From IMG/VR virus record IMGVR_UViG_2545824708_000017: DNA of 24,201 nt; one strand, given 5' to 3'. Within the stretch, counting starts at the first letter, position 1. Each line of letters opens with the position of its first letter. This stretch comes from a virus (taxonomy: Duplodnaviria > Heunggongvirae > Uroviricota > Caudoviricetes). The position numbers were made by a program, and so were the translations under genes. This document shows, piece after piece, positions 1,381 through 24,201 of the stretch. A model generated the notes under the pieces. It had not been told where the DNA came from. It made no database searches and saw only the letters and a list, made by a program, of their open reading frames with translations.

Positions 1381-4300
1381 TCAGCTGATACTGATCCCTG
1401 CCGTGGATTTTTTCATGACCACAACCAGTAAATCACTGATGTACGTTGTCGGCGTCCAGTTGTTCGCACCGGCCGACGACACATTAAACGTCAGGGTGAC
1501 ATGACCCCGCCCTGCCGGCATATCTATCACCGATGAGAACACCCGGCTGACATCCGTTGCCGGTTCATGGAAAATCTCAACCCCGTTCTTCAGCACCTGC
1601 AGCTTACAGGTGGAATACCAGTACGACTGCTGATTCGGGCTGTTGAAATTCTGGTGTTTCGTCCCGTGAAACAGCACCGGGGGAATGATAATCTGCCGGT
1701 CGAATCCCTGGTCATCGTAAACTGTGACGGTTACCGTCCCGCTGGCATAACTGTTATTCCGGGGAAAGGCTTTCCCCACCGTCTTCACCAGGTCGCCTTC
1801 AATCTGGTTTGCAGACAGTTTCCCTCTGATGACACAGTTCTCGTTAATGGTGACATTATTGAGCGTGCCGGTATTCGCGGTAATTGCTCCGCTGATATCC
1901 GCGTTCCTGGCTGTCAGCTTCCCTTCCGGCGTCAGGGAAAACGTCGGGGGGTTGCCGGATGACGTGATACTCGCCGCAAACAGACGCTTCAGGAACACGT
2001 CGTTCATGAACAGCTGATTCCCCTGCGCCACAAATAACGGAGTGCTGTTGCCGCTCTCCGGATTTATCATCGCGATACGGTCAGCCAGCAGCAGTATGTT
2101 GCTCAGTGGCTGGCCATCAGTATCCTCAATCCCTGCACCAATCCCGGCCACATAGGGAATGCCGTCTTTCGTTTTTTGAACCTTCAGCATGTACAGCGCA
2201 GCCAGGTCATCATTTGTGTCCTTCTGCACGCGCTGTATCTGCTGAATGGTGGCGCTCTGGTCTTCCAGCGTTTTACTGACCGTCTGTGTGATTTCATTGC
2301 GGGTTTCGGTGATGGTGGTCTTCATCTCCGCCATCTCATCCGCAAGCTGGCTGTTGTCTATCAGCTCCCATAGCCCCTGAGCCAGATGCAGTTTTCCTAT
2401 TTTTTCCCGGAAAAATTCCAGATACCCTTCACCATCATTGCTGGGCTGCCCGCTGACTTCCACAAACGCAGATTTCCCCACCAGGTTGACGCTGCGCACG
2501 TAAAACCAGAAATCCTTCCCGGGCTTAATGTGCGGGCCGGATACACTCCACTGACTGCCGGTCCCCAGATAACGGGCAGAGGTTTCCACCTGAGATGTGT
2601 CTGCGATTTTTGCCTCCGAAAACCAGAACTCAAACTGTACCGTCGGGTCATACACCGCAAGACGCGGGACCGCCGTTATCTGAAAATACCCCGGCGTCAG
2701 TTCAATGGTGGCGGGTTTTGCTGGCGCGTTAATCTGGAAGGTGGTGGTGGCCGGTTCGCCCTGCTGGCCATAACTGTTAATTGCCCGGACGGTCAGGGTG
2801 TATTCCCCGAGCGGCAGACCACTGAAACGATGCTCTGTATCCGCAGTGATGGCGGTGGTCACCAGACGGCTGTCTTCTCCGCTTCCGTTGGTCAGGCGCA
2901 GACTGAAGCGCACACCCTTCACCACCCGCGGCGTGTCCCATTTCGCCTGTGCCAGATACTGACCGTCAGCCGCGCTCACCTCCACCGTCAGGTGCTGCAC
3001 AGCCGGCGGGATGACGCTGTTCAGCGAACCGGACAGTGGCTCAAAGCTGGCCCCGTTATCCACAATGGCTTCTTTTTCCGGTACGTGCTGCACCGCCGTG
3101 ATGGCAAAGGTGCCGTCCGTGTTTTCCCGGATGGAGACACAGCGGAACAGGCGACGACGCAGTGACGGCAGGGAGAGTCCCCATACACCGTATGTCTCCA
3201 CACCATCAGGCAGGGTGCTGACCTGTATCCGGTCCGGCGCGGGGTGTGCAGTGATGGCCACGCTCACCGGCTTACCGCTGCCGTTAATCAGGTTCACCGT
3301 GGCGGCACCTGTCTCCGGCAGGGTCACCTCACGGTCCAGTGTCAGGGTGCGGCTGGCGGCATCGATGGACAGGATACGTCCGCCGGTCATGGTCCCGGCA
3401 TAGTCGTTATCACAGATTTCAATAATGTCACCGGGTGTGTGACGCAGCCCCTGTGACCCGAGCGTGAAATCCACCGTCTGCGTTTCCAGCAGTCCGGTCT
3501 TTATCACCCACAGCCCGGCACGGTGGGCCTGACCGCGACTGGTGCAACCGAACGCATCCATCTTCAGCAGGTTGCGCCCGTAGCGCAGTATGGCTTCCGG
3601 GTCTTCCACCAGTTCCGTGGAGGTCTGCCAGCCGTTCTGCGGGTCGGTGTAATTCACCTCCACCGCCGTGTGACGGTCCTTCAGGGCGCTGAAGCTGTAG
3701 CGAAACCCCACGCCGTTATCATCCACCACCACATCGCAGTTGGTGTACGGCCACACCACATCCGACGGGCGGTCCTGAACGAACGTCAGCGTCTGGCCGT
3801 TCCATACCGGCATACAGCGCATCGCCGAGCAGAAATCACTGAGCACATCCCATGCCTTACGCTGTTGTGACAGGTACGCATTAAAGGTCATCCGCGGCTC
3901 TGTGCCCCCGAAACCATCCGGGACCGTCTGGTCGCAGTACTGCCCGATGGCATACAGCGCCCACTTGTCCACATCCGCCGCCCCCAGACGTTTTCCCATG
4001 CCGTAACGCGGGTGAGTCAGCATGTCCCACAGGCACCAGGCCGGGTTGTTGCTGTATGCCGGTTTCAGGCTGCCGTCCCAGATACCACTGTACGTGCGTT
4101 TTTCCGGGTCATAGTTTGACGGCACCTGAATAATGCGACCGCGGATATGGTAGTTCACCGTCATCTGCTGACCGCCAAACTGCTCCGCATCCACCTGCAG
4201 CCCCACAATCGCCGTGTTCGGGTAGCACTGTTTCACATCGATGATTTCGGTGTATGACGACCAGAGCGTCTTATTCTGCAGCTGGTCCGAGGTGCTGTCC

Positions 4301-18576: not shown

Positions 18577-18779
18577 AACCTCACTCCCAGCGGACGACGG
18601 CGACGTCGGGTTGTCCCCAGTACCGACTCCGCATCATTGATCGCCCGGTTAAGCTCATCCAGAGAAGCCGCCGTATATTCAATTCTGCGACCATCTTTCT
18701 GGACAGACACCACCCGTTTACCGGTTAATAAATCAAGGCGCGCCTGACGTAGCGCCTGTAGTTCAGCGACTGTAACCAT
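18573..18779 (-). CDS. W: Head-tail connector / head completion protein W
   Basis: 68-aa ORF; LLTGKRVVSVQKDGRRIEYTA...RRRRRP matches lambda gpW (68 aa). Confidence 0.9.
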   Translation of the reverse strand: MVTVAELQALRQARLDLLTGKRVVSVQKDGRRIEYTAASLDELNRAINDAESVLGTTRRRRRPLGVRL

Positions 18780-20691
18780 TCACTCCTCCGGACAGCTTCG
18801 CTGCCAGTTCTTTCAGGGTTGGCCGGGTCGTCTCTTCTTCCCGGGATTTTGCCAGTACAGCCAGATCAAGCTGCCAGCGTTGCACGGACACACGTAATGC
18901 CGCGTAGGCATACACCAGGCAGTCCAGCGCTTCGTTACGCCGCTTTTTGTTATCCCACAGCAGACGCATCTTTCCTTTTTCCCACTTCTCCACAAGCTCT
19001 TCCGCGACCAGTTGCTGCGCCTCTGTCTGCGAAAAAATCTCCGGATCATCAGGAAAACGGATGGCATACGACGTGGCTTCATCCGCAGGAGGGGGATCGG
19101 CTTTCATACGGGCATAGAGAATTTCTTTTGCGGTGTCCGTCCCCACTTCACACAGATACACGCCCCGCTGATTGCGGGTTTTCGGCATGGTGATCACCGG
19201 CTTGCCATAGACAGATGCGCCTTTTACCGGCAGCACCCGGAAAACACCGTGTTTTTTTGACCTCTGATAGACAATTTCACCATCGATCCCCCCGGTGTCC
19301 CAGCAGACACGGGAAATGGTCATTTCGGTTCCGTCTGCATGGCAGTATTTTTTGTTGATCGCCGCATCCACACGTAACAGCGTCTCTTCCTCATCGGGAC
19401 GGCCCATAATGATGATTTTATCCACCAGAAAGGCTTCCTCTCCCTGTGCCCATCCCCAGACATACATCTCAAAACGGTTTCGCTGCGAGTCAATGCCCGC
19501 CGTCAGATAAACCACCCGGGCAGGCACCGCCGCCGTGTAACGCACCACCTTATCCATCAGTACCTGGTGATCGAGTTTTTCGCCCACGGCCTCTTCCCAG
19601 GTCTCGCCCAGCGTGGTGTTCACAAAGGTTTTCAGGCCGTTGGGATCTTTCAGTGCATCCAGCCAGTCATAGACTATCTGTATCCAGGTGGTGAACGGAC
19701 TGTACGCCGTCCAGATATGGAACGTGATGGAGCGCGGCGGCGGAATTTCATCCCCCCGGGCGCTGAAAAACATCAGGCCGTCACGGGTCCACATACCCGT
19801 GTTTTCACAGATCCAGCGCCCGTTACTCTGGTCAAGCTCAGACTGATGGATCACGCAGCCATGATGTTCACAGAGGTAGAAAACGCTTTCGGGGCTGTCC
19901 TTCTCCCATTTAAGGCCAAAAGGCGTGGATTCATCGCCAAATTTCAGATACTGCGCCTCCCCACAGTGCGGGCAGGGCACATAGAAACGCATGAAATGCG
20001 CCGACTCGTTGGCCGCTTTTTCGATCTGGCAGGTACCTTTGATTTTAGGCGTCGAGCCGCGAATGGATTTTGGCCATACAGAGCCCTCAATACGCTTATC
20101 CCCCAGCAGGGTTGGCGAGCCCTCTTTTTCGACATCCGGCTCGAACGAGGAAAGTTCGTCATAGCAGACCACGTCCACGGATTTTTCACGGTAGTTTTTG
20201 GCGGCAGCGCCGCCCAGGCACCAGAAACCGACGCCCGATGAAAAGCGTTTCAGCGTGAGAGTATTGTCACGATGTTTACGACCCAGCCATGGGGAAAGGT
20301 CTTTCAGGCATGGCACGTTCCGAATCGTCGCCTCCACGTGAGACTTCATAAAATCTTCAGCGGCAGAATCCGTGGGCTGAAAAAGCAGACTGTTTCGGGA
20401 TTTATGCTCAATAAAATACCCGACCACCCCCAGCAACATCTTTGTATAGCCAACACGGGCAGATTTAATCAGGTTAACCGTGCGAACCTGGTCGTTACCC
20501 ATACAGTTCATAATGGCGATCTGGAATGGCAGCGTTTTCCATTCGCCCTCACCATATGAAGATTCTTTAGGCAGATAATAATTTTGATCAGCCCATTCAA
20601 CTGCCGTCATTGGTACAACCCTGACCAGAGGCTGCAGCGCAACCGAAACGGCAGCCATCATATTATTCAGTTGTTGCTCTGATATATTCAT
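18763..20691 (-). CDS. A: Terminase large subunit A
   Basis: High similarity to lambda gpA throughout (TAVEWADQNYYLPKES, KSARVGYTKMLLGV, Walker-like region, FHIWTAYSPFTTW, CWDTGGID, RRNEALDC). Start placed at MNISEQQLNN (642 aa; lambda 641 aa, starts MNIS...) rather than the track start at 20748; overlaps the Nu1 3' end by about 29 nt, as in lambda. Confidence 0.93.
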   Translation of the reverse strand: MNISEQQLNNMMAAVSVALQPLVRVVPMTAVEWADQNYYLPKESSYGEGEWKTLPFQIAIMNCMGNDQVRTVNLIKSARVGYTKMLLGVVGYFIEHKSRNSLLFQPTDSAAEDFMKSHVEATIRNVPCLKDLSPWLGRKHRDNTLTLKRFSSGVGFWCLGGAAAKNYREKSVDVVCYDELSSFEPDVEKEGSPTLLGDKRIEGSVWPKSIRGSTPKIKGTCQIEKAANESAHFMRFYVPCPHCGEAQYLKFGDESTPFGLKWEKDSPESVFYLCEHHGCVIHQSELDQSNGRWICENTGMWTRDGLMFFSARGDEIPPPRSITFHIWTAYSPFTTWIQIVYDWLDALKDPNGLKTFVNTTLGETWEEAVGEKLDHQVLMDKVVRYTAAVPARVVYLTAGIDSQRNRFEMYVWGWAQGEEAFLVDKIIIMGRPDEEETLLRVDAAINKKYCHADGTEMTISRVCWDTGGIDGEIVYQRSKKHGVFRVLPVKGASVYGKPVITMPKTRNQRGVYLCEVGTDTAKEILYARMKADPPPADEATSYAIRFPDDPEIFSQTEAQQLVAEELVEKWEKGKMRLLWDNKKRRNEALDCLVYAYAALRVSVQRWQLDLAVLAKSREEETTRPTLKELAAKLSGGVNGYSR

Positions 20692-21172
20692 CGAGTAAAT
20701 CCGGTAATTTATCCCCTGCCCGCGCACACTGATTTGCCCCCTTAGCAATAAGGGTTTTCAGATGGTCAAGATGGCGCGGTGTTAAATCAGGAAACTGTCG
20801 CTGCATGGATAAAGGGATGGAATCAAGCGTACTGGATAACGCCATTGCCAGCTTACTGAGGGCAAAAATACAGAACCCGGTGTCAATAAGTTTTCCTTTT
20901 GACACCTCATTTTTTAACTGCTGTGTAACAGCCTGTTCTGCTGTCAGTTCCCATCTGGCAATAAGCAATTTCTCCTCATAGTCGTCTTCGCTATCGCCAT
21001 CAGGCACATCGTTTTTACTTCTCCTCAGATACGATATGTAAAAATCGCGCCAGGCATCCAGATCCAGTTGCCCTCGCTTATTCGATATCGGGGCACCCGG
21101 CAATTTCTGCAATCTGCGAAGCTGGCGATCGGTCAGACTTAAATGCCTGGCAACTTCAGTCTGCGTAGCCAC
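20663..21172 (-). CDS. Nu1: Terminase small subunit Nu1
   Basis: 169-aa ORF from a GTG start; C-terminal half (DTGFCIFALSKLA...LSMQRQFPDL..RHLD.LK) matches lambda Nu1; N-terminal helix-turn-helix (TQTEVARHLSLTDRQLRRL) differs from lambda. First gene after cos. Confidence 0.8.
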   Translation of the reverse strand: MATQTEVARHLSLTDRQLRRLQKLPGAPISNKRGQLDLDAWRDFYISYLRRSKNDVPDGDSEDDYEEKLLIARWELTAEQAVTQQLKNEVSKGKLIDTGFCIFALSKLAMALSSTLDSIPLSMQRQFPDLTPRHLDHLKTLIAKGANQCARAGDKLPDLLDEYIRATTE

Positions 21173-21219
21173 TCCTCACCTCGCAAAAACTCTCACCTCA
21201 CAATCACAACAAAACCGGT

Positions 21220-21230
21220 CATGTCCGGTT
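21220..21230 (+). repeat. cosB-like R repeat 1 (catgtccggtt)
   Basis: Exact 11-mer catgtccggtt; one of three copies between Nu1 start and cosN. Confidence 0.5.
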
Positions 21231-21249
21231 TACATGTCTGTTTTTTGTT

Positions 21250-21260
21250 CATGTCCGGTT
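21250..21260 (+). repeat. cosB-like R repeat 2 (catgtccggtt)
   Basis: Exact direct repeat of the 11-mer, 30 bp from repeat 1. Confidence 0.5.
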
Positions 21261-21307
21261 CACAGAAGACCTGTTTTTATATTTTTCATATAGTTAACTT
21301 GAAGAGA

Positions 21308-21318
21308 AACCGGACATG
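21308..21318 (-). repeat. cosB-like R repeat 3 (inverted copy, aaccggacatg on plus strand)
   Basis: Exact reverse complement of the 11-mer, 38 bp from cosN; separated from repeat 2 by an AT-rich spacer. Confidence 0.5.
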
Positions 21319-21355
21319 GATCCCGGAAAATTTTCATAAATAGCGAAAACCCGCG

Positions 21356-21367
21356 AGGTCGCCGCCC
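21356..21367 (-). other. cosN: 12-nt cohesive-end sequence (GGGCGGCGACCT on minus strand)
   Basis: Minus strand 21367-21330 reads GGGCGGCGACCTCGCGGGTTTTCGCTATTTATGAAAATTTTCCGG, identical to the lambda left end as recalled; flanking cgacaggttacgg matches the lambda right end. Confidence 0.85.
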
Positions 21368-21404
21368 CGTAACCTGTCGGATCGCCGGAAAGGACCCACG
21401 AAAA

Positions 21405-21419
21405 TGATAATAATTATCA
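21405..21419. promoter_or_regulatory. Fur-box-like 7-1-7 palindrome TGATAAT-A-ATTATCA
   Basis: Perfect inverted repeat matching the Fur box core (tGATAATnATTATCa); 14 of 19 matches to the classical GATAATGATAATCATTATC. Lies about 40 bp outside cosN and about 155 bp upstream of the YlcI-like gene. Confidence 0.4.
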
Positions 21420-21574
21420 TCTACATGAGGTTTATCACGACATGTGTGTACGCCATCAAACCACGAGAAATAATCAATTATTACGCAGGTATCGTATTAA
21501 TTGATCTGCATCAAATTAGCGTAAAAGCAACTTCAGATAATACAAATCAGCAACACTGAATACGGGGCAACATT

Positions 21575-21799
21575 ATGTCATCAAAGAACAGAACCCGCAG
21601 AACAACAACCCGCAACATCCGATTTCCAAACCAGATAATTGAACAAATTAACATCGCTCTTGACCTGAAAGGTTCAGGTAATTTTTCAGCGTGGGTTATT
21701 GAAGCCTGCAGAAGAAGATTAATTAATGAAAAATATTCTCAATTTGTACCCAACAAAGACAAACACGACCAGAGCACCTGTTCAGACAGGTTTACTTAA
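21575..21799 (+). CDS. YlcI/YnfO-family small protein (DUF3950-like), prophage-encoded
   Basis: 74-aa ORF; N-terminus MSSKNRTRRTTTRNIRFPNQIIEQINIAL...GSGNFSAWVIEACRRRL closely matches E. coli prophage YlcI/YnfO as recalled; these lie next to cos/terminase in lambdoid prophages. Confidence 0.6.
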   Translation: MSSKNRTRRTTTRNIRFPNQIIEQINIALDLKGSGNFSAWVIEACRRRLINEKYSQFVPNKDKHDQSTCSDRFT

Positions 21800-21817
21800 A
21801 CGACTTATATATGACAC

Positions 21818-21848
21818 AAAAAGCGACCACTAAAGTCGCTTTTTCTTA
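21818..21848. terminator. Bidirectional rho-independent terminator between convergent genes
   Basis: aaaaagcgac(21818-21827)/gtcgcttttt(21835-21844) with 7-nt loop; A-run on one side and T-run on the other. Confidence 0.6.
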
Positions 21849-21880
21849 TGGTAACAGGCAATAACTCTCTCAGATATTTT

Positions 21881-22195
21881 TTAGCATTTTTTTGACCGCG
21901 CGTTTCCGGACGTATTCTGTTCTCCTGTCCCTTTATATCGTCGGAATACCCGCCGCTCTTCAAATCCCATTCCCAACTCAGAATGTAGTCTGTTGACCGC
22001 TTGTTTTATTTCGGTCAGGTTCACCGGTGAAACCGGAGTCCGGCGCGCCTTACGCAAACACTCTGCTCGTTTCTGTGCCGCCACTTTTCTTTTCTGGTCA
22101 TCACTTAGCTGTACCATCACTTTTGCCCATCGTTCAGCTGCTCTCCGGTACAGTCCTTTTTTCTCCAGACATTCTGCCACGTGATCATGTAGCAT
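21881..22195 (-). CDS. PerC-family transcriptional regulator homolog (Pch-like)
   Basis: 104-aa basic ORF with strong GGAGGT Shine-Dalgarno 5 nt upstream; N-terminal AECLEKKGLYRRAAERWAKVM resembles the conserved PerC/Pch N-terminal motif (recall only). Occupies the position where lambda carries bor. Confidence 0.5.
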   Translation of the reverse strand: MLHDHVAECLEKKGLYRRAAERWAKVMVQLSDDQKRKVAAQKRAECLRKARRTPVSPVNLTEIKQAVNRLHSELGMGFEERRVFRRYKGTGEQNTSGNARSKKC

Positions 22196-22240
22196 AAGTG
22201 ACCTCCGATTATCTACAGACTGCCATCCTGAATTTACCTT

Positions 22241-22318
22241 CCCTTAATGAAATAACAATAAAAAACAAACCACGCAAAAACAATAAAACAACACACAAAA
22301 AAACTAAATAATAAACAA
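22241..22318 (+). repeat. Low-complexity A/C-only tract (about 78 nt, almost no G or T) in an AT-rich ORF-free spacer
   Basis: aataacaataaaaaacaaaccacgcaaaaacaataaaacaacacacaaaaaaactaaataataaacaaaaataatcacc; strong strand compositional skew; followed by a T-rich run. Confidence 0.6.
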
Positions 22319-23957: not shown

Positions 23958-24201
23958 GGTAATGACTCCAACTTACTGATAGTGTTTTATGTTCAGATAA
24001 TGCCCGATGACCTTGTCATGCAGCTCCGCCGATTTTGAGAACGACAGTGACTTCCGTCCCAGCCTTGCCAGATGTTGTCTCAGATTCAGATTATGTCGCT
24101 CAATGCGCTGAGTGTAACGCTTGCTGATAACGTGCAGCTTTCCCTTCAGGCATGATTCATACAGCGGCCAGCCATCCGTCATCCATACCACGACCTCAAA
24201 G
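23958..24201 (-). mobile_element. IS1 insertion sequence, one terminus plus insB 3' end (partial; continues past window end)
   Basis: ggtaatgactccaacttactgatagtgttttatgttcagataatgcccgatgac is the reverse complement of the IS1 terminal inverted repeat; the adjacent ORF encodes the InsB C-terminus. Confidence 0.9.
23973..24201 (-). CDS. insB: IS1 transposase InsB, C-terminal part (partial)
   Basis: [72 protein letters not shown] matches IS1 InsB C-terminus from memory. Confidence 0.9.

What the first reader, a model, noticed from the sequence alone, without database searches (positions are those of the whole stretch)
21405..21419. Perfect Fur-box-like palindrome next to cos, upstream of the YlcI-like gene
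TGATAAT-A-ATTATCA is a perfect 7-1-7 inverted repeat matching the Fur operator core. It sits in the accessory segment between cos and the YlcI/PerC-like gene pair. If functional, it would place this cargo (or transcription reading into cos) under iron control, which has precedent for prophage virulence genes.
Basis: seen in the sequence. Interest (0 to 1): 0.5.

Follow-up and report, generated by a model that had tools for sequence, protein, structure and literature searches.

The report
Conserved Fur box beside phage cos
The palindrome is a real, very strong binding site for the iron-sensing repressor Fur that almost all lambda-type phages, lambda included, keep a few bases outside their DNA-packaging site; it was already described in E. 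coli K-12 as the 'nohA/nohB' Fur site, and what it controls is still not settled.

Summary
Observation confirmed. TGATAATAATTATCA lies at 21405-21419; about 3e-5 exact matches are expected by chance. It also matches the 19-bp Fur consensus at 17 of 19 positions.

The site is already known. The same 27 bp occur in the K-12 prophage DLP12, the published 'nohB' Fur site (25.3 bits, third strongest cluster in K-12). The Qin/lambda version differs only at the central base and was shifted by Fur in a gel assay. The phage-21 version in CFT073 lies under a Fur ChIP-exo peak, with flanking genes derepressed in a fur mutant.

New here: the box goes with cos, not with the YlcI/PerC cargo.
- It lies 3-8 bp beyond cosQ in 120 of 126 lambda-type cos sites, next to at least 15 unrelated neighbouring sequences.
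- Conservation stops abruptly about 21 bp after its start.
- It is missing from functional PICI cos sites and from the plaque-forming phage Lambda_2B8, so packaging does not need it.
- The YlcI-like gene appears to have its own FNR-type promoter about 90 bp further on.

Fur binding is well supported. The regulatory target is unresolved. This is another copy of a known site, and its function is an unexplained small puzzle.

The parts
21405..21419 (.). Perfect 7-1-7 palindrome TGATAATAATTATCA, the core Fur recognition unit
   Evidence: Identical 15-mer in DLP12 and phi80; lambda and Qin differ only at the central base.
21400..21418 (+). 19-bp Fur box GAAAATGATAATAATTATC, 17 of 19 matches to the consensus
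   Evidence: no match with up to 3 mismatches in 100 shuffles.
21397..21427 (.). Extended imperfect palindrome, the likely full Fur-protected array. Positions 21401-21427 are identical to the DLP12 'nohB' cluster.
   Evidence: inverted repeat I3: 15-nt arms, 80% complementary; for the identity; (nohB cluster: 4 sites over 28 bp, 25.3 bits).
21391..21397 (-). cosQ (GGGTCCT on the phage + strand), the packaging termination element
   Evidence: Same 7-mer at the same distance from cosN as in lambda, 21, phi80 and N15. Annotated as cosQ in the phage 21 record.
21356..21367 (-). cosN, the 12-base cohesive-end sequence (GGGCGGCGACCT on the phage + strand)
   Evidence: identical to the left end of lambda, as seen in the DLP12 and Qin cos regions.
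21212..21318 (.). cosB-like repeats CATGTCCGGTT (two direct copies at 21220 and 21250, one inverted at 21308), presumed small-terminase binding sites
   Evidence: repeat families D1, I2, I4. The position between cosN and the Nu1-like gene matches the layout of lambda cosB (inference).
20663..21172 (-). Small terminase subunit (Nu1 family)
   Evidence: PF07471, E = 1e-18.
18763..20748 (-). Large terminase subunit (lambda gpA-like)
   Evidence: translation. A near-identical 661-aa ORF follows the Nu1-like gene in L065, and the 641-aa ORF after lambda-type Nu1 in L051 is of the same family. RefSeq annotates the flanking gene as terminase small subunit.
21501..21514 (.). Perfect FNR-type box TTGATCTGCATCAA, the predicted activator site of the YlcI-like gene's own promoter
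   Evidence: single hit, 0.06 expected. The homologous K-12 site binds FNR in ChIP-chip and gel shift.
21536..21541 (+). GATAAT, a candidate -10 hexamer that would put the FNR box at about -41.5 (class II geometry). Inference only.
   Evidence: Read from the sequence. The stricter sigma-70 scan reported nothing in 21100-22300.
21575..21799 (+). YlcI/YnfO-family (DUF3950) gene, transcribed away from cos
   Evidence: PF13132, E = 1e-17; RefSeq annotation.
21818..21845 (.). Bidirectional terminator-like hairpin between the YlcI-like and PerC-like genes
   Evidence: -12.3 and -15.1 kcal/mol, z = -2.8 and -2.6, U runs on both strands.
21881..22195 (-). PerC-family regulator gene, transcribed towards cos
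   Evidence: PF06069, E = 4e-44.

Best explanation
The palindrome is a genuine high-affinity operator for the host ferric uptake regulator Fur. It is one copy of a site that lambda-type phages carry as a fixed part of the cos flank, 3-8 bp outside cosQ and about 40-50 bp from the right end of virion DNA.

Shown by sequence identity to experimentally tested sites: in iron-replete cells Fe2+-Fur dimers should occupy the core at 21403-21421. Probably a second dimer sits on the overlapping half-matches across 21397-27.

Shown comparatively:
- The site is not tied to the YlcI/PerC cargo.
- It is not an essential part of the packaging signal.

Inferred: it acts as a local iron-responsive repressor or insulator site at the junction between the late-region accessory ('moron') slot and cos/terminase. 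It would keep weak transcription that starts at or crosses this junction low when iron is plentiful and release it when iron is scarce or Fur is absent.

In this window no promoter can be seen under the box. The direct target here, if there is one, is unidentified.
For: (1) Motif. 14 of 14 specified positions of the 7-1-7 unit and 17 of 19 of the classical box match; 3e-5 exact hits are expected.

(2) Identity to tested sites.
- Window 21401-21427 equals DLP12. Chen et al. 2007 list that site as 'nohB': 25.3 bits, third strongest Fur cluster in K-12, citing the Fur titration paper of Stojiljkovic 1994.
- The Qin/lambda variant TGATAATGATTATCA is their 'nohA' site: 22.3 bits, 233 bp upstream of nohA. 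It was shifted by 150 nM Fur and lay on a fragment recovered in an in vivo Fur selection.
- The coordinate mapping was checked: the site centre lies exactly 233 bp from the nohA start.

(3) Chromosomal occupancy. Fur ChIP-exo peak P53 in CFT073 (1424699-1424711) falls on the phage-21-type variant at 1424694-1424708, next to cosQ. Three genes of the two flanking transcription units rise 2.1-2.9 log2 in the fur mutant. recN is not induced in that strain, which argues against an SOS artefact.

(4) Selection on the site itself.
- 120 of 126 cos regions carry it with at most 3 mismatches.
- Across 15 unrelated downstream contexts, information content is high from -3 to +21 and then falls to noise. 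The spacer to cosQ varies in length and sequence.
- The family consensus, GATAAT-G-ATTATC followed by AwTTrC (IUPAC codes), follows the asymmetric 19-bp Fur box and not merely a palindrome.

(5) It is not an RNA hairpin: -4 kcal/mol, z = -1.1.
Against: - No sigma-70 promoter was predicted over or next to the box on either strand (and manual inspection).
- In MG1655 the fur mutant does not change nohD or nohQ. In W3110, ylcI and ynfO go down, not up, on a handful of reads.
- The MG1655 ChIP-exo list has no peak at either K-12 copy.
- A nohA-directed lacZ fusion covering this region was nearly silent.
- Some viable relatives have lost the site, so any benefit is conditional.
- No binding or expression experiment was done on this exact prophage.
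Confidence: 0.75

Rival explanations
1. The palindrome is part of the packaging signal, an outward extension of cosQ (the 'R4 region'). Terminase or an accessory host protein would read it when packaging terminates at the downstream cos.
For: It keeps a near-fixed place next to cosQ in 120 of 126 cos sites, whatever the neighbouring genes. The phi80 record draws 'cosQ; aka R4 region' over a 55-bp stretch that includes it. Standard cos test fragments begin at lambda bp 48446 and so include it.
Against: Both cos sites of the satellite EcCICFT073 have cosQ and cosN but no such palindrome, yet each supports transfer by lambda and phi80. Plaque-forming Lambda_2B8 lacks it, as do the sequenced phage 4A7 and an Enterobacter N15-like phage. 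The spacer to cosQ varies from 3 to 8 bp, which is hard to reconcile with one composite recognition site. Conservation follows the asymmetric Fur consensus. From memory only, since the paper is not held: saturation mutagenesis by Wieczorek and Feiss 2001 defined cosQ as just the 7 bp.
Confidence: 0.08
2. The box is the operator of the divergent cargo gene (here the YlcI-like gene, and through it the accessory segment). Fur would repress that gene directly in iron-replete cells.
For: The box is upstream of the YlcI-like gene and that gene reads away from it. In the phage-21-type arrangement a TTACAG / 18 nt / TATTAT promoter-like pair starts 2 bp after the box (read). In CFT073 the unit flanking the peak on the side away from the terminase genes is derepressed 5- to 8-fold in the fur mutant.
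Against: The box centre is about 137 bp upstream of the predicted YlcI-like start, which has a perfect FNR box in class II position. No -10 element follows the box in the lambda-type sequence. ylcI and ynfO are not derepressed in W3110 fur. In at least 9 contexts (phi80, N15, L120, L121, L086 and others) the neighbouring gene points towards cos and there is no divergent gene, yet the box is kept.
Confidence: 0.15
3. The site binds Fur but does nothing useful. It is a high-affinity decoy carried along with the essential cosQ 7 bp away and spread by recombination among E. coli phages.
For: There is no expression change or ChIP-exo peak in MG1655. The site has been lost in several viable phages and in satellites. 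The phages sampled are nearly all from Escherichia, so their shared ancestry is recent.
Against: Mosaic junctions are bimodal. They fall either within about 8 bp after cosQ or about 21 bp after the start of the box, not in between. The intervening spacer drifts in length and sequence while the box does not. Pure hitch-hiking predicts scattered junctions and equal drift. Lambda, phi80, 21 and N15 differ widely elsewhere in cos.
Confidence: 0.12

Closest known systems
'nohB' (nohD) Fur site of the E. coli K-12 cryptic prophage DLP12 (Stojiljkovic 1994; Chen et al. 2007)
   Same: An identical 27-bp block, including the whole 15-bp palindrome and the 19-bp 9-1-9 core. Same position beyond cosQ, same YlcI-family gene on one side and Nu1-family gene on the other.
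   Different: It sits in a different prophage. The spacer to cosQ is 6 bp there and 7 bp here. The small terminase and cosB repeats are of another specificity type, and here a PerC-family gene follows.
'nohA' Fur site of prophage Qin, equal to bacteriophage lambda bp 48452-48466
   Same: Same element at the same place. Fur binding was shown by gel shift and by in vivo selection of the fragment.
   Different: The central base is G instead of A, and there is one flank difference. It scores 22.3 rather than 25.3 bits in the published model.
Fur ChIP-exo peak P53 at the phage-21-type cos of a CFT073 prophage (Gao et al. 2023)
   Same: Same position next to cosQ. This is the only copy with documented chromosomal occupancy and fur-dependent expression of neighbours.
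   Different: Its left arm is degenerate (CGAGAAT). The neighbour on the side away from the terminase genes is a different small ORF in a region that also encodes a TonB-family protein, not YlcI.
Fur boxes in front of prophage cargo operons, such as sitABCD on gut lambda phages (Mathieu et al. 2020) and the iron-regulated stx1 promoter (the latter from memory)
   Same: Host Fur is used to bring phage-borne genes into the iron regulon.
   Different: Those boxes overlap the promoter of a specific cargo operon and travel with it. This one travels with cos and has no recognisable promoter under it.

Membership tests
E. coli Fur operator (Fur box) | Sequence match to the 19-bp consensus, the 7-1-7 unit or the 9-1-9 unit | tested here: met
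   14 of 14 specified positions and 17 of 19. The 19-mer 21403-21421 is identical to the DLP12 site scored at 25.3 bits by the published information model.
E. coli Fur operator (Fur box) | Metal-dependent binding of purified Fur (gel shift or footprint) | not testable with these tools
   Shown for the nohA oligonucleotide, which differs at the central base. Not done for this copy.
E. coli Fur operator (Fur box) | Occupancy in vivo (titration assay or ChIP) | not testable with these tools
   Homologues: the nohA fragment was selected in vivo, and nohB is listed with a citation to the titration paper. There is a ChIP-exo peak on the CFT073 variant. No peak is listed for the two K-12 copies in MG1655.
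E. coli Fur operator (Fur box) | Overlap with a promoter, and Fur- or iron-dependent expression of the adjacent gene | tested here: inconclusive
   No promoter was predicted at the box. Neighbours are derepressed in CFT073 fur but not in MG1655 or W3110.
Lambda cos packaging signal (as an extension of cosQ) | Present in every functional lambda-type cos | tested here: not met
   Absent from both EcCICFT073 cos sites, which are functional in transfer assays, and from Lambda_2B8, 4A7 and an Enterobacter Ravinvirus.
Lambda cos packaging signal (as an extension of cosQ) | Fixed spacing to the other cos subsites | tested here: not met
   The spacer from cosQ to the box ranges from 3 to 8 bp. The cosQ-cosN spacing was fixed by the search pattern in all matched cos sites.
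Lambda cos packaging signal (as an extension of cosQ) | Mutations impair cos cleavage or termination | not testable with these tools
   The mutagenesis papers (Cue and Feiss 1993; Wieczorek and Feiss 2001) are not held.

The most novel reading that the evidence does not exclude
Lambda-type phages keep one of the strongest Fur sites known 40-50 bp from the DNA end that is packaged last. From general knowledge of lambda, that end also enters the cell first. The site might therefore be kept for a phage-specific, non-promoter purpose. Examples: Fur loading on the incoming or newly cut cosQ end (protection or handling of that end, which terminase does not cover); iron-dependent modulation of late read-through or termination at cos; or titration of Fur by hundreds of replicating genomes to derepress host iron uptake during lytic growth. 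Satellites that merely borrow the packaging machinery do not need the site, which would fit its absence from PICI cos sites.
Probability: 0.12. Interest if true: 0.7.

Novelty: already known. Interest (0 to 1): 0.3.

Why it matters
The finding itself is a rediscovery. The site has been in the E. coli Fur literature since the 1990s under the names of the neighbouring genes nohA and nohB.

The comparison run here adds three things:
- The site is not a quirk of two cryptic prophages. It is a conserved feature of the lambda-type cos flank, present in lambda itself.
- It is separable from the packaging signal.
- It is not attached to any particular cargo gene.

Related copies of this cos segment are found in 5189 of 5426 complete E. 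coli genomes, with a median of 3 places per genome. These sites may therefore be a sizeable, strain-variable part of the high-affinity Fur-binding load. They may also be a possible route by which iron status touches prophage behaviour. Why the phages keep the site is an open question that can be tested cheaply.

Tried and rejected
- **RNA structure.** The palindrome folds weakly as RNA (-4 kcal/mol, z = -1.1), and Rfam finds nothing in the window. Rejected.
- **Promoter overlapping the box.** The consensus scan found none in 21100-22300. Manual trials of -35/-10 pairs on both strands gave nothing convincing for the lambda-type sequence; only the phage-21-type context has a plausible pair.
- **The 51-aa ORF 21404-21559 that starts inside the palindrome.** It has no Pfam hit and is not kept as an ORF in DLP12-type relatives. 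Treated as spurious.
- **YlcI as the protein that reads the palindrome.** Rejected, because phi80, N15 and 21 keep the box without a YlcI gene.
- **An independent Fur weight matrix.** I could not build one: the supplement of Chen 2007 is not held. I relied on their published score for the identical sequence.
- **Widening the taxonomic range.** The genome-contig scan returned only 19 hits. Most were Escherichia or Shigella; several hits in unrelated genera look like lambda contamination, for example a 48,542-bp 'Shewanella' contig.
- **Papers not held.** The cosQ mutagenesis papers and Seo 2014.
- **Other literature checks.** Supplement searches for Sakai pch-region tags and for MG1655 peak coordinates found nothing. 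No held paper links Fur to lambda cos.
- **Compensatory symmetry.** The outer pair T..A changes to C..G in N15, but this does not generalise: most C1 variants keep A15.

Full report
**Observation.** Window 21405-21419 reads TGATAATAATTATCA, a perfect 7-1-7 inverted repeat. It is the only exact match to TGATAATNATTATCA in the 24.2-kb window. A perfect palindrome with 7-nt arms is not remarkable in itself, since the window contains five. A match to this specific motif is remarkable: about 3e-5 exact hits are expected from base composition. The classical 19-bp Fur consensus is matched at 17 of 19 positions at 21400-21418, and no match with up to 3 mismatches appeared in 100 shuffles. The symmetry continues imperfectly over 21397-21427.

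**Context.** The window is a lambdoid prophage read in reverse. From left to right it holds:
- the large terminase (18763-20748, minus strand) and a Nu1-family small terminase (20663-21172, minus strand);
- three CATGTCCGGTT repeats in the place of cosB;
- the 12-base cohesive-end sequence (21356-21367) and cosQ (21391-21397);
- the palindrome;
- a DUF3950 YlcI/YnfO-family gene (21575-21799, plus strand);
- a terminator-like hairpin and a convergent PerC-family gene (21881-22195, minus strand);
- Rz/Rz1, a lysozyme and an IS1 fragment.

The same 2.7 kb occurs at 99.9-100% identity in many E. coli chromosomes. Related segments are present in 5189 of 5426 complete genomes, with a median of three places each.

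**The site is not particular to this prophage.** The right end of lambda reads ...GGACCC gtaaag TGATAATGATTATCA tctacat..., which places the palindrome at lambda bp 48452-48466, six bases outside cosQ (48473-48479).
- Phi80 has TGATAATAATTATCA.
- Phage 21 has cGAGAATAATTATCA.
- N15 has CGATAATAGTTATCG.

In these three phages the sequence beyond the element is unrelated to the window. The K-12 cryptic prophages carry it too. DLP12 is identical to the window over 21401-21427, and Qin is identical to lambda.

**Published evidence on the K-12 copies.** Chen et al. 2007 (PMC2189734) list 'nohB' (25.3 bits, four overlapping sites over 28 bp, the third strongest Fur cluster in the genome) and 'nohA' (22.3 bits, 233 bp upstream of nohA). 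The nohA oligonucleotide was shifted by 150 nM Fur. The nohA fragment was one of five recovered by Vassinova and Kozyrev's in vivo selection. The nohB entry cites the Fur titration paper of Stojiljkovic et al. 1994.

I checked the mapping of their older coordinates. The Qin palindrome centre lies exactly 233 bp upstream of the nohA start in the current record. The offsets of 777 and 1976 bp between old and current coordinates are also reproduced by an independent FNR site in the same region.

**Chromosomal evidence from CFT073.** Gao et al. 2023 (PMC10164565) report Fur ChIP-exo peak P53 at 1424699-1424711 in CFT073. That interval overlaps the phage-21-type variant TGATAATTATTCTCg at 1424694-1424708, immediately beside cosQ of a resident prophage. 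The authors assign the peak to the two flanking transcription units. Three genes of those units are in their fur-derepressed set, at +2.33, +2.95 and +2.13 log2; in that table positive values mean up in the mutant, as for fepA. recN is not induced in CFT073 fur, so general prophage induction through SOS is an unlikely cause.

Evidence pointing the other way:
- The MG1655 peak list has nothing at either K-12 copy.
- nohD and nohQ are unchanged in MG1655 fur.
- ylcI and ynfO go down in W3110 fur, on very few reads.

**What the site goes with.** I scanned IMG/VR for the cosN-cosQ core and looked at what follows cosQ.
- Of 126 cos regions, 89 have a perfect 7-1-7 motif, 31 have one to three mismatches, and six lack it. 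The spacer to cosQ is 3-8 bp.
- I collapsed the set to 15 representatives whose downstream sequences are unrelated. In these, information content is high from three bases before the element to about base 21, then drops to noise.
- The spacer between cosQ and the element varies in length and sequence.
- The family consensus is GATAAT-G-ATTATC followed by AwTTrC (IUPAC codes). This follows the asymmetric 19-bp Fur box (a preferred central G and a partial third hexamer) and not merely a palindrome.
- The neighbouring gene differs. It is YlcI-like and divergent in lambda-type contexts, and a small ORF in the 21 type. In at least nine contexts (phi80, N15 and others) a gene points towards cos and its 3' end abuts or overlaps the element.

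The element therefore belongs to the cos flank and not to the YlcI/PerC cargo.

**It is not needed for packaging.**
- The satellite EcCICFT073 has two cos sites with cosQ and cosN but no Fur-like element. One has a terminator hairpin ending two bases before cosQ. Both cloned sites support plasmid transfer by lambda and phi80 (Fillol-Salom 2018).
- The coliphage Lambda_2B8, named among the phages isolated in Mathieu 2020, the sequenced phage 4A7 and an Enterobacter N15-like phage keep cosQ and lose the element within about 8 bp after it. The 2B8 record ends inside cosN, as expected for virion DNA.
- The same junction class recurs in IMG/VR loci that carry ordinary lambda terminase genes.

Mosaic junctions are thus bimodal. 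They fall within about 8 bp after cosQ or just after the Fur block, which argues for two separate functional units.

**The YlcI-like gene appears to have its own control.** TTGATCTGCATCAA at 21501-21514 is a perfect FNR-type box. The homologous K-12 sequence binds FNR in ChIP-chip and gel shift (Grainger et al. 2007). With GATAAT at 21536-21541 as the -10 element, the box would be centred near -41.5, which is the class II activation geometry. This part is my inference. It puts the Fur box near -137, too far for ordinary promoter occlusion. The PerC-like gene is convergent and lies behind a hairpin. No sigma-70 promoter is predicted over the Fur box on either strand. In the phage-21-type sequence a TTACAG / 18 nt / TATTAT pair starts two bases after the box (read), which may explain the CFT073 derepression.

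**Conclusion.** Fur binding at this site is well supported, by identity with tested sites. The site is already known, so this is not a new kind of element.

My best reading is a cos-flank Fur operator that damps local transcription at the junction between the accessory-gene slot and cos/terminase when iron is replete. This functional part is inferred and rests mainly on one strain. Rivals, in my order of likelihood:
- a cargo-gene operator (possible in some contexts, unlikely here);
- a functionless decoy carried with cosQ;
- an extension of the packaging signal (least likely).

A more unusual possibility is a phage-specific role near the end of the DNA, or titration of Fur by replicating genomes. 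The data do not exclude it, and it would be the interesting outcome.

**Limits.**
- The sampled phages are almost all from Escherichia, so conservation covers limited evolutionary depth.
- The strand of CFT073 transcription unit TU53 could not be established from the current annotation.
- The cosQ mutagenesis papers could not be read.

Noticed in passing
window 21501-21514 (with 21536-21541): A perfect FNR/CRP-type box TTGATCTGCATCAA lies 61 nt upstream of the YlcI-like ATG, with a GATAAT placed as a class II -10 element. The homologous K-12 site binds FNR in vivo and in vitro (Grainger 2007), but only the nohA-directed fusion was tested there, and ynfO/ylcI are not mentioned in that paper. 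The YlcI/YnfO genes may be anaerobically induced.
   Followed up: partly
L148 7931-18700 (CFT073 satellite EcCICFT073): The satellite carries a YlcI/YnfO-family gene and a PerC-family gene, the same pair that sits next to cos in the window. Its two cos sites lack the Fur box, and one has a terminator hairpin ending 2 nt before cosQ.
   Followed up: partly
L149 (phage 4A7), L150 (Lambda_2B8), L051, L085, L111: Cos regions without the Fur box share another conserved segment directly after cosQ (..GTTCTGGT..CTTCGTAATGGGATTTAATAGC.., then CAGACCTGAATACACGTCCTGTTTCTTCCACCCCCGCACAGGACTGGCGAG). Parts of it recur near cos in other contexts as a pseudo-ORF ('CIVFDYPRTLAQ...'). It has no Rfam match, and its nature is unknown.
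   Followed up: partly
L003 764-1090 (phage 21), L007 1155-1481 (CFT073 prophage), L002 961-1191 (phi80): Iron-themed cargo lies within about 1 kb of cos in relatives: a TonB C-terminal-domain / TonB-family protein in phage 21 and the CFT073 prophage, and a gene annotated 'putative Fur-regulated protein' in phi80.
   Followed up: no
window 23973-24191 (minus strand): An IS1 transposase fragment (PF03400) lies at the right edge of the window, about 150 bp past the lysozyme ORF. It may interrupt the lysis/late region of this prophage.
   Followed up: no
window 20663-21172 and 21212-21318: The small terminase matches the Nu1 family only over its C-terminal part (residues 49-150). The cosB repeats (CATGTCCGGTT) differ from those of lambda. 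In L065 a related terS has yet another N-terminus joined to the same C-terminus and the same large terminase. This looks like modular swapping of packaging specificity.
   Followed up: no
lambda (L001 locus coordinates about 2210-2403, minus strand; roughly lambda bp 48110-48302): The reference lambda record annotates nothing after lambdap79, yet the sequence holds an intact YlcI/YnfO-family ORF reading away from cos, as in DLP12 and Qin.
   Followed up: partly
L128-L146 (genome-contig hits): Several hits in unrelated genera (Oceanobacillus, Shewanella with a 48,542-bp contig, Neobacillus, Leeuwenhoekiella and others) look like lambda control-DNA contamination of assemblies, not real prophages.
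   Followed up: no
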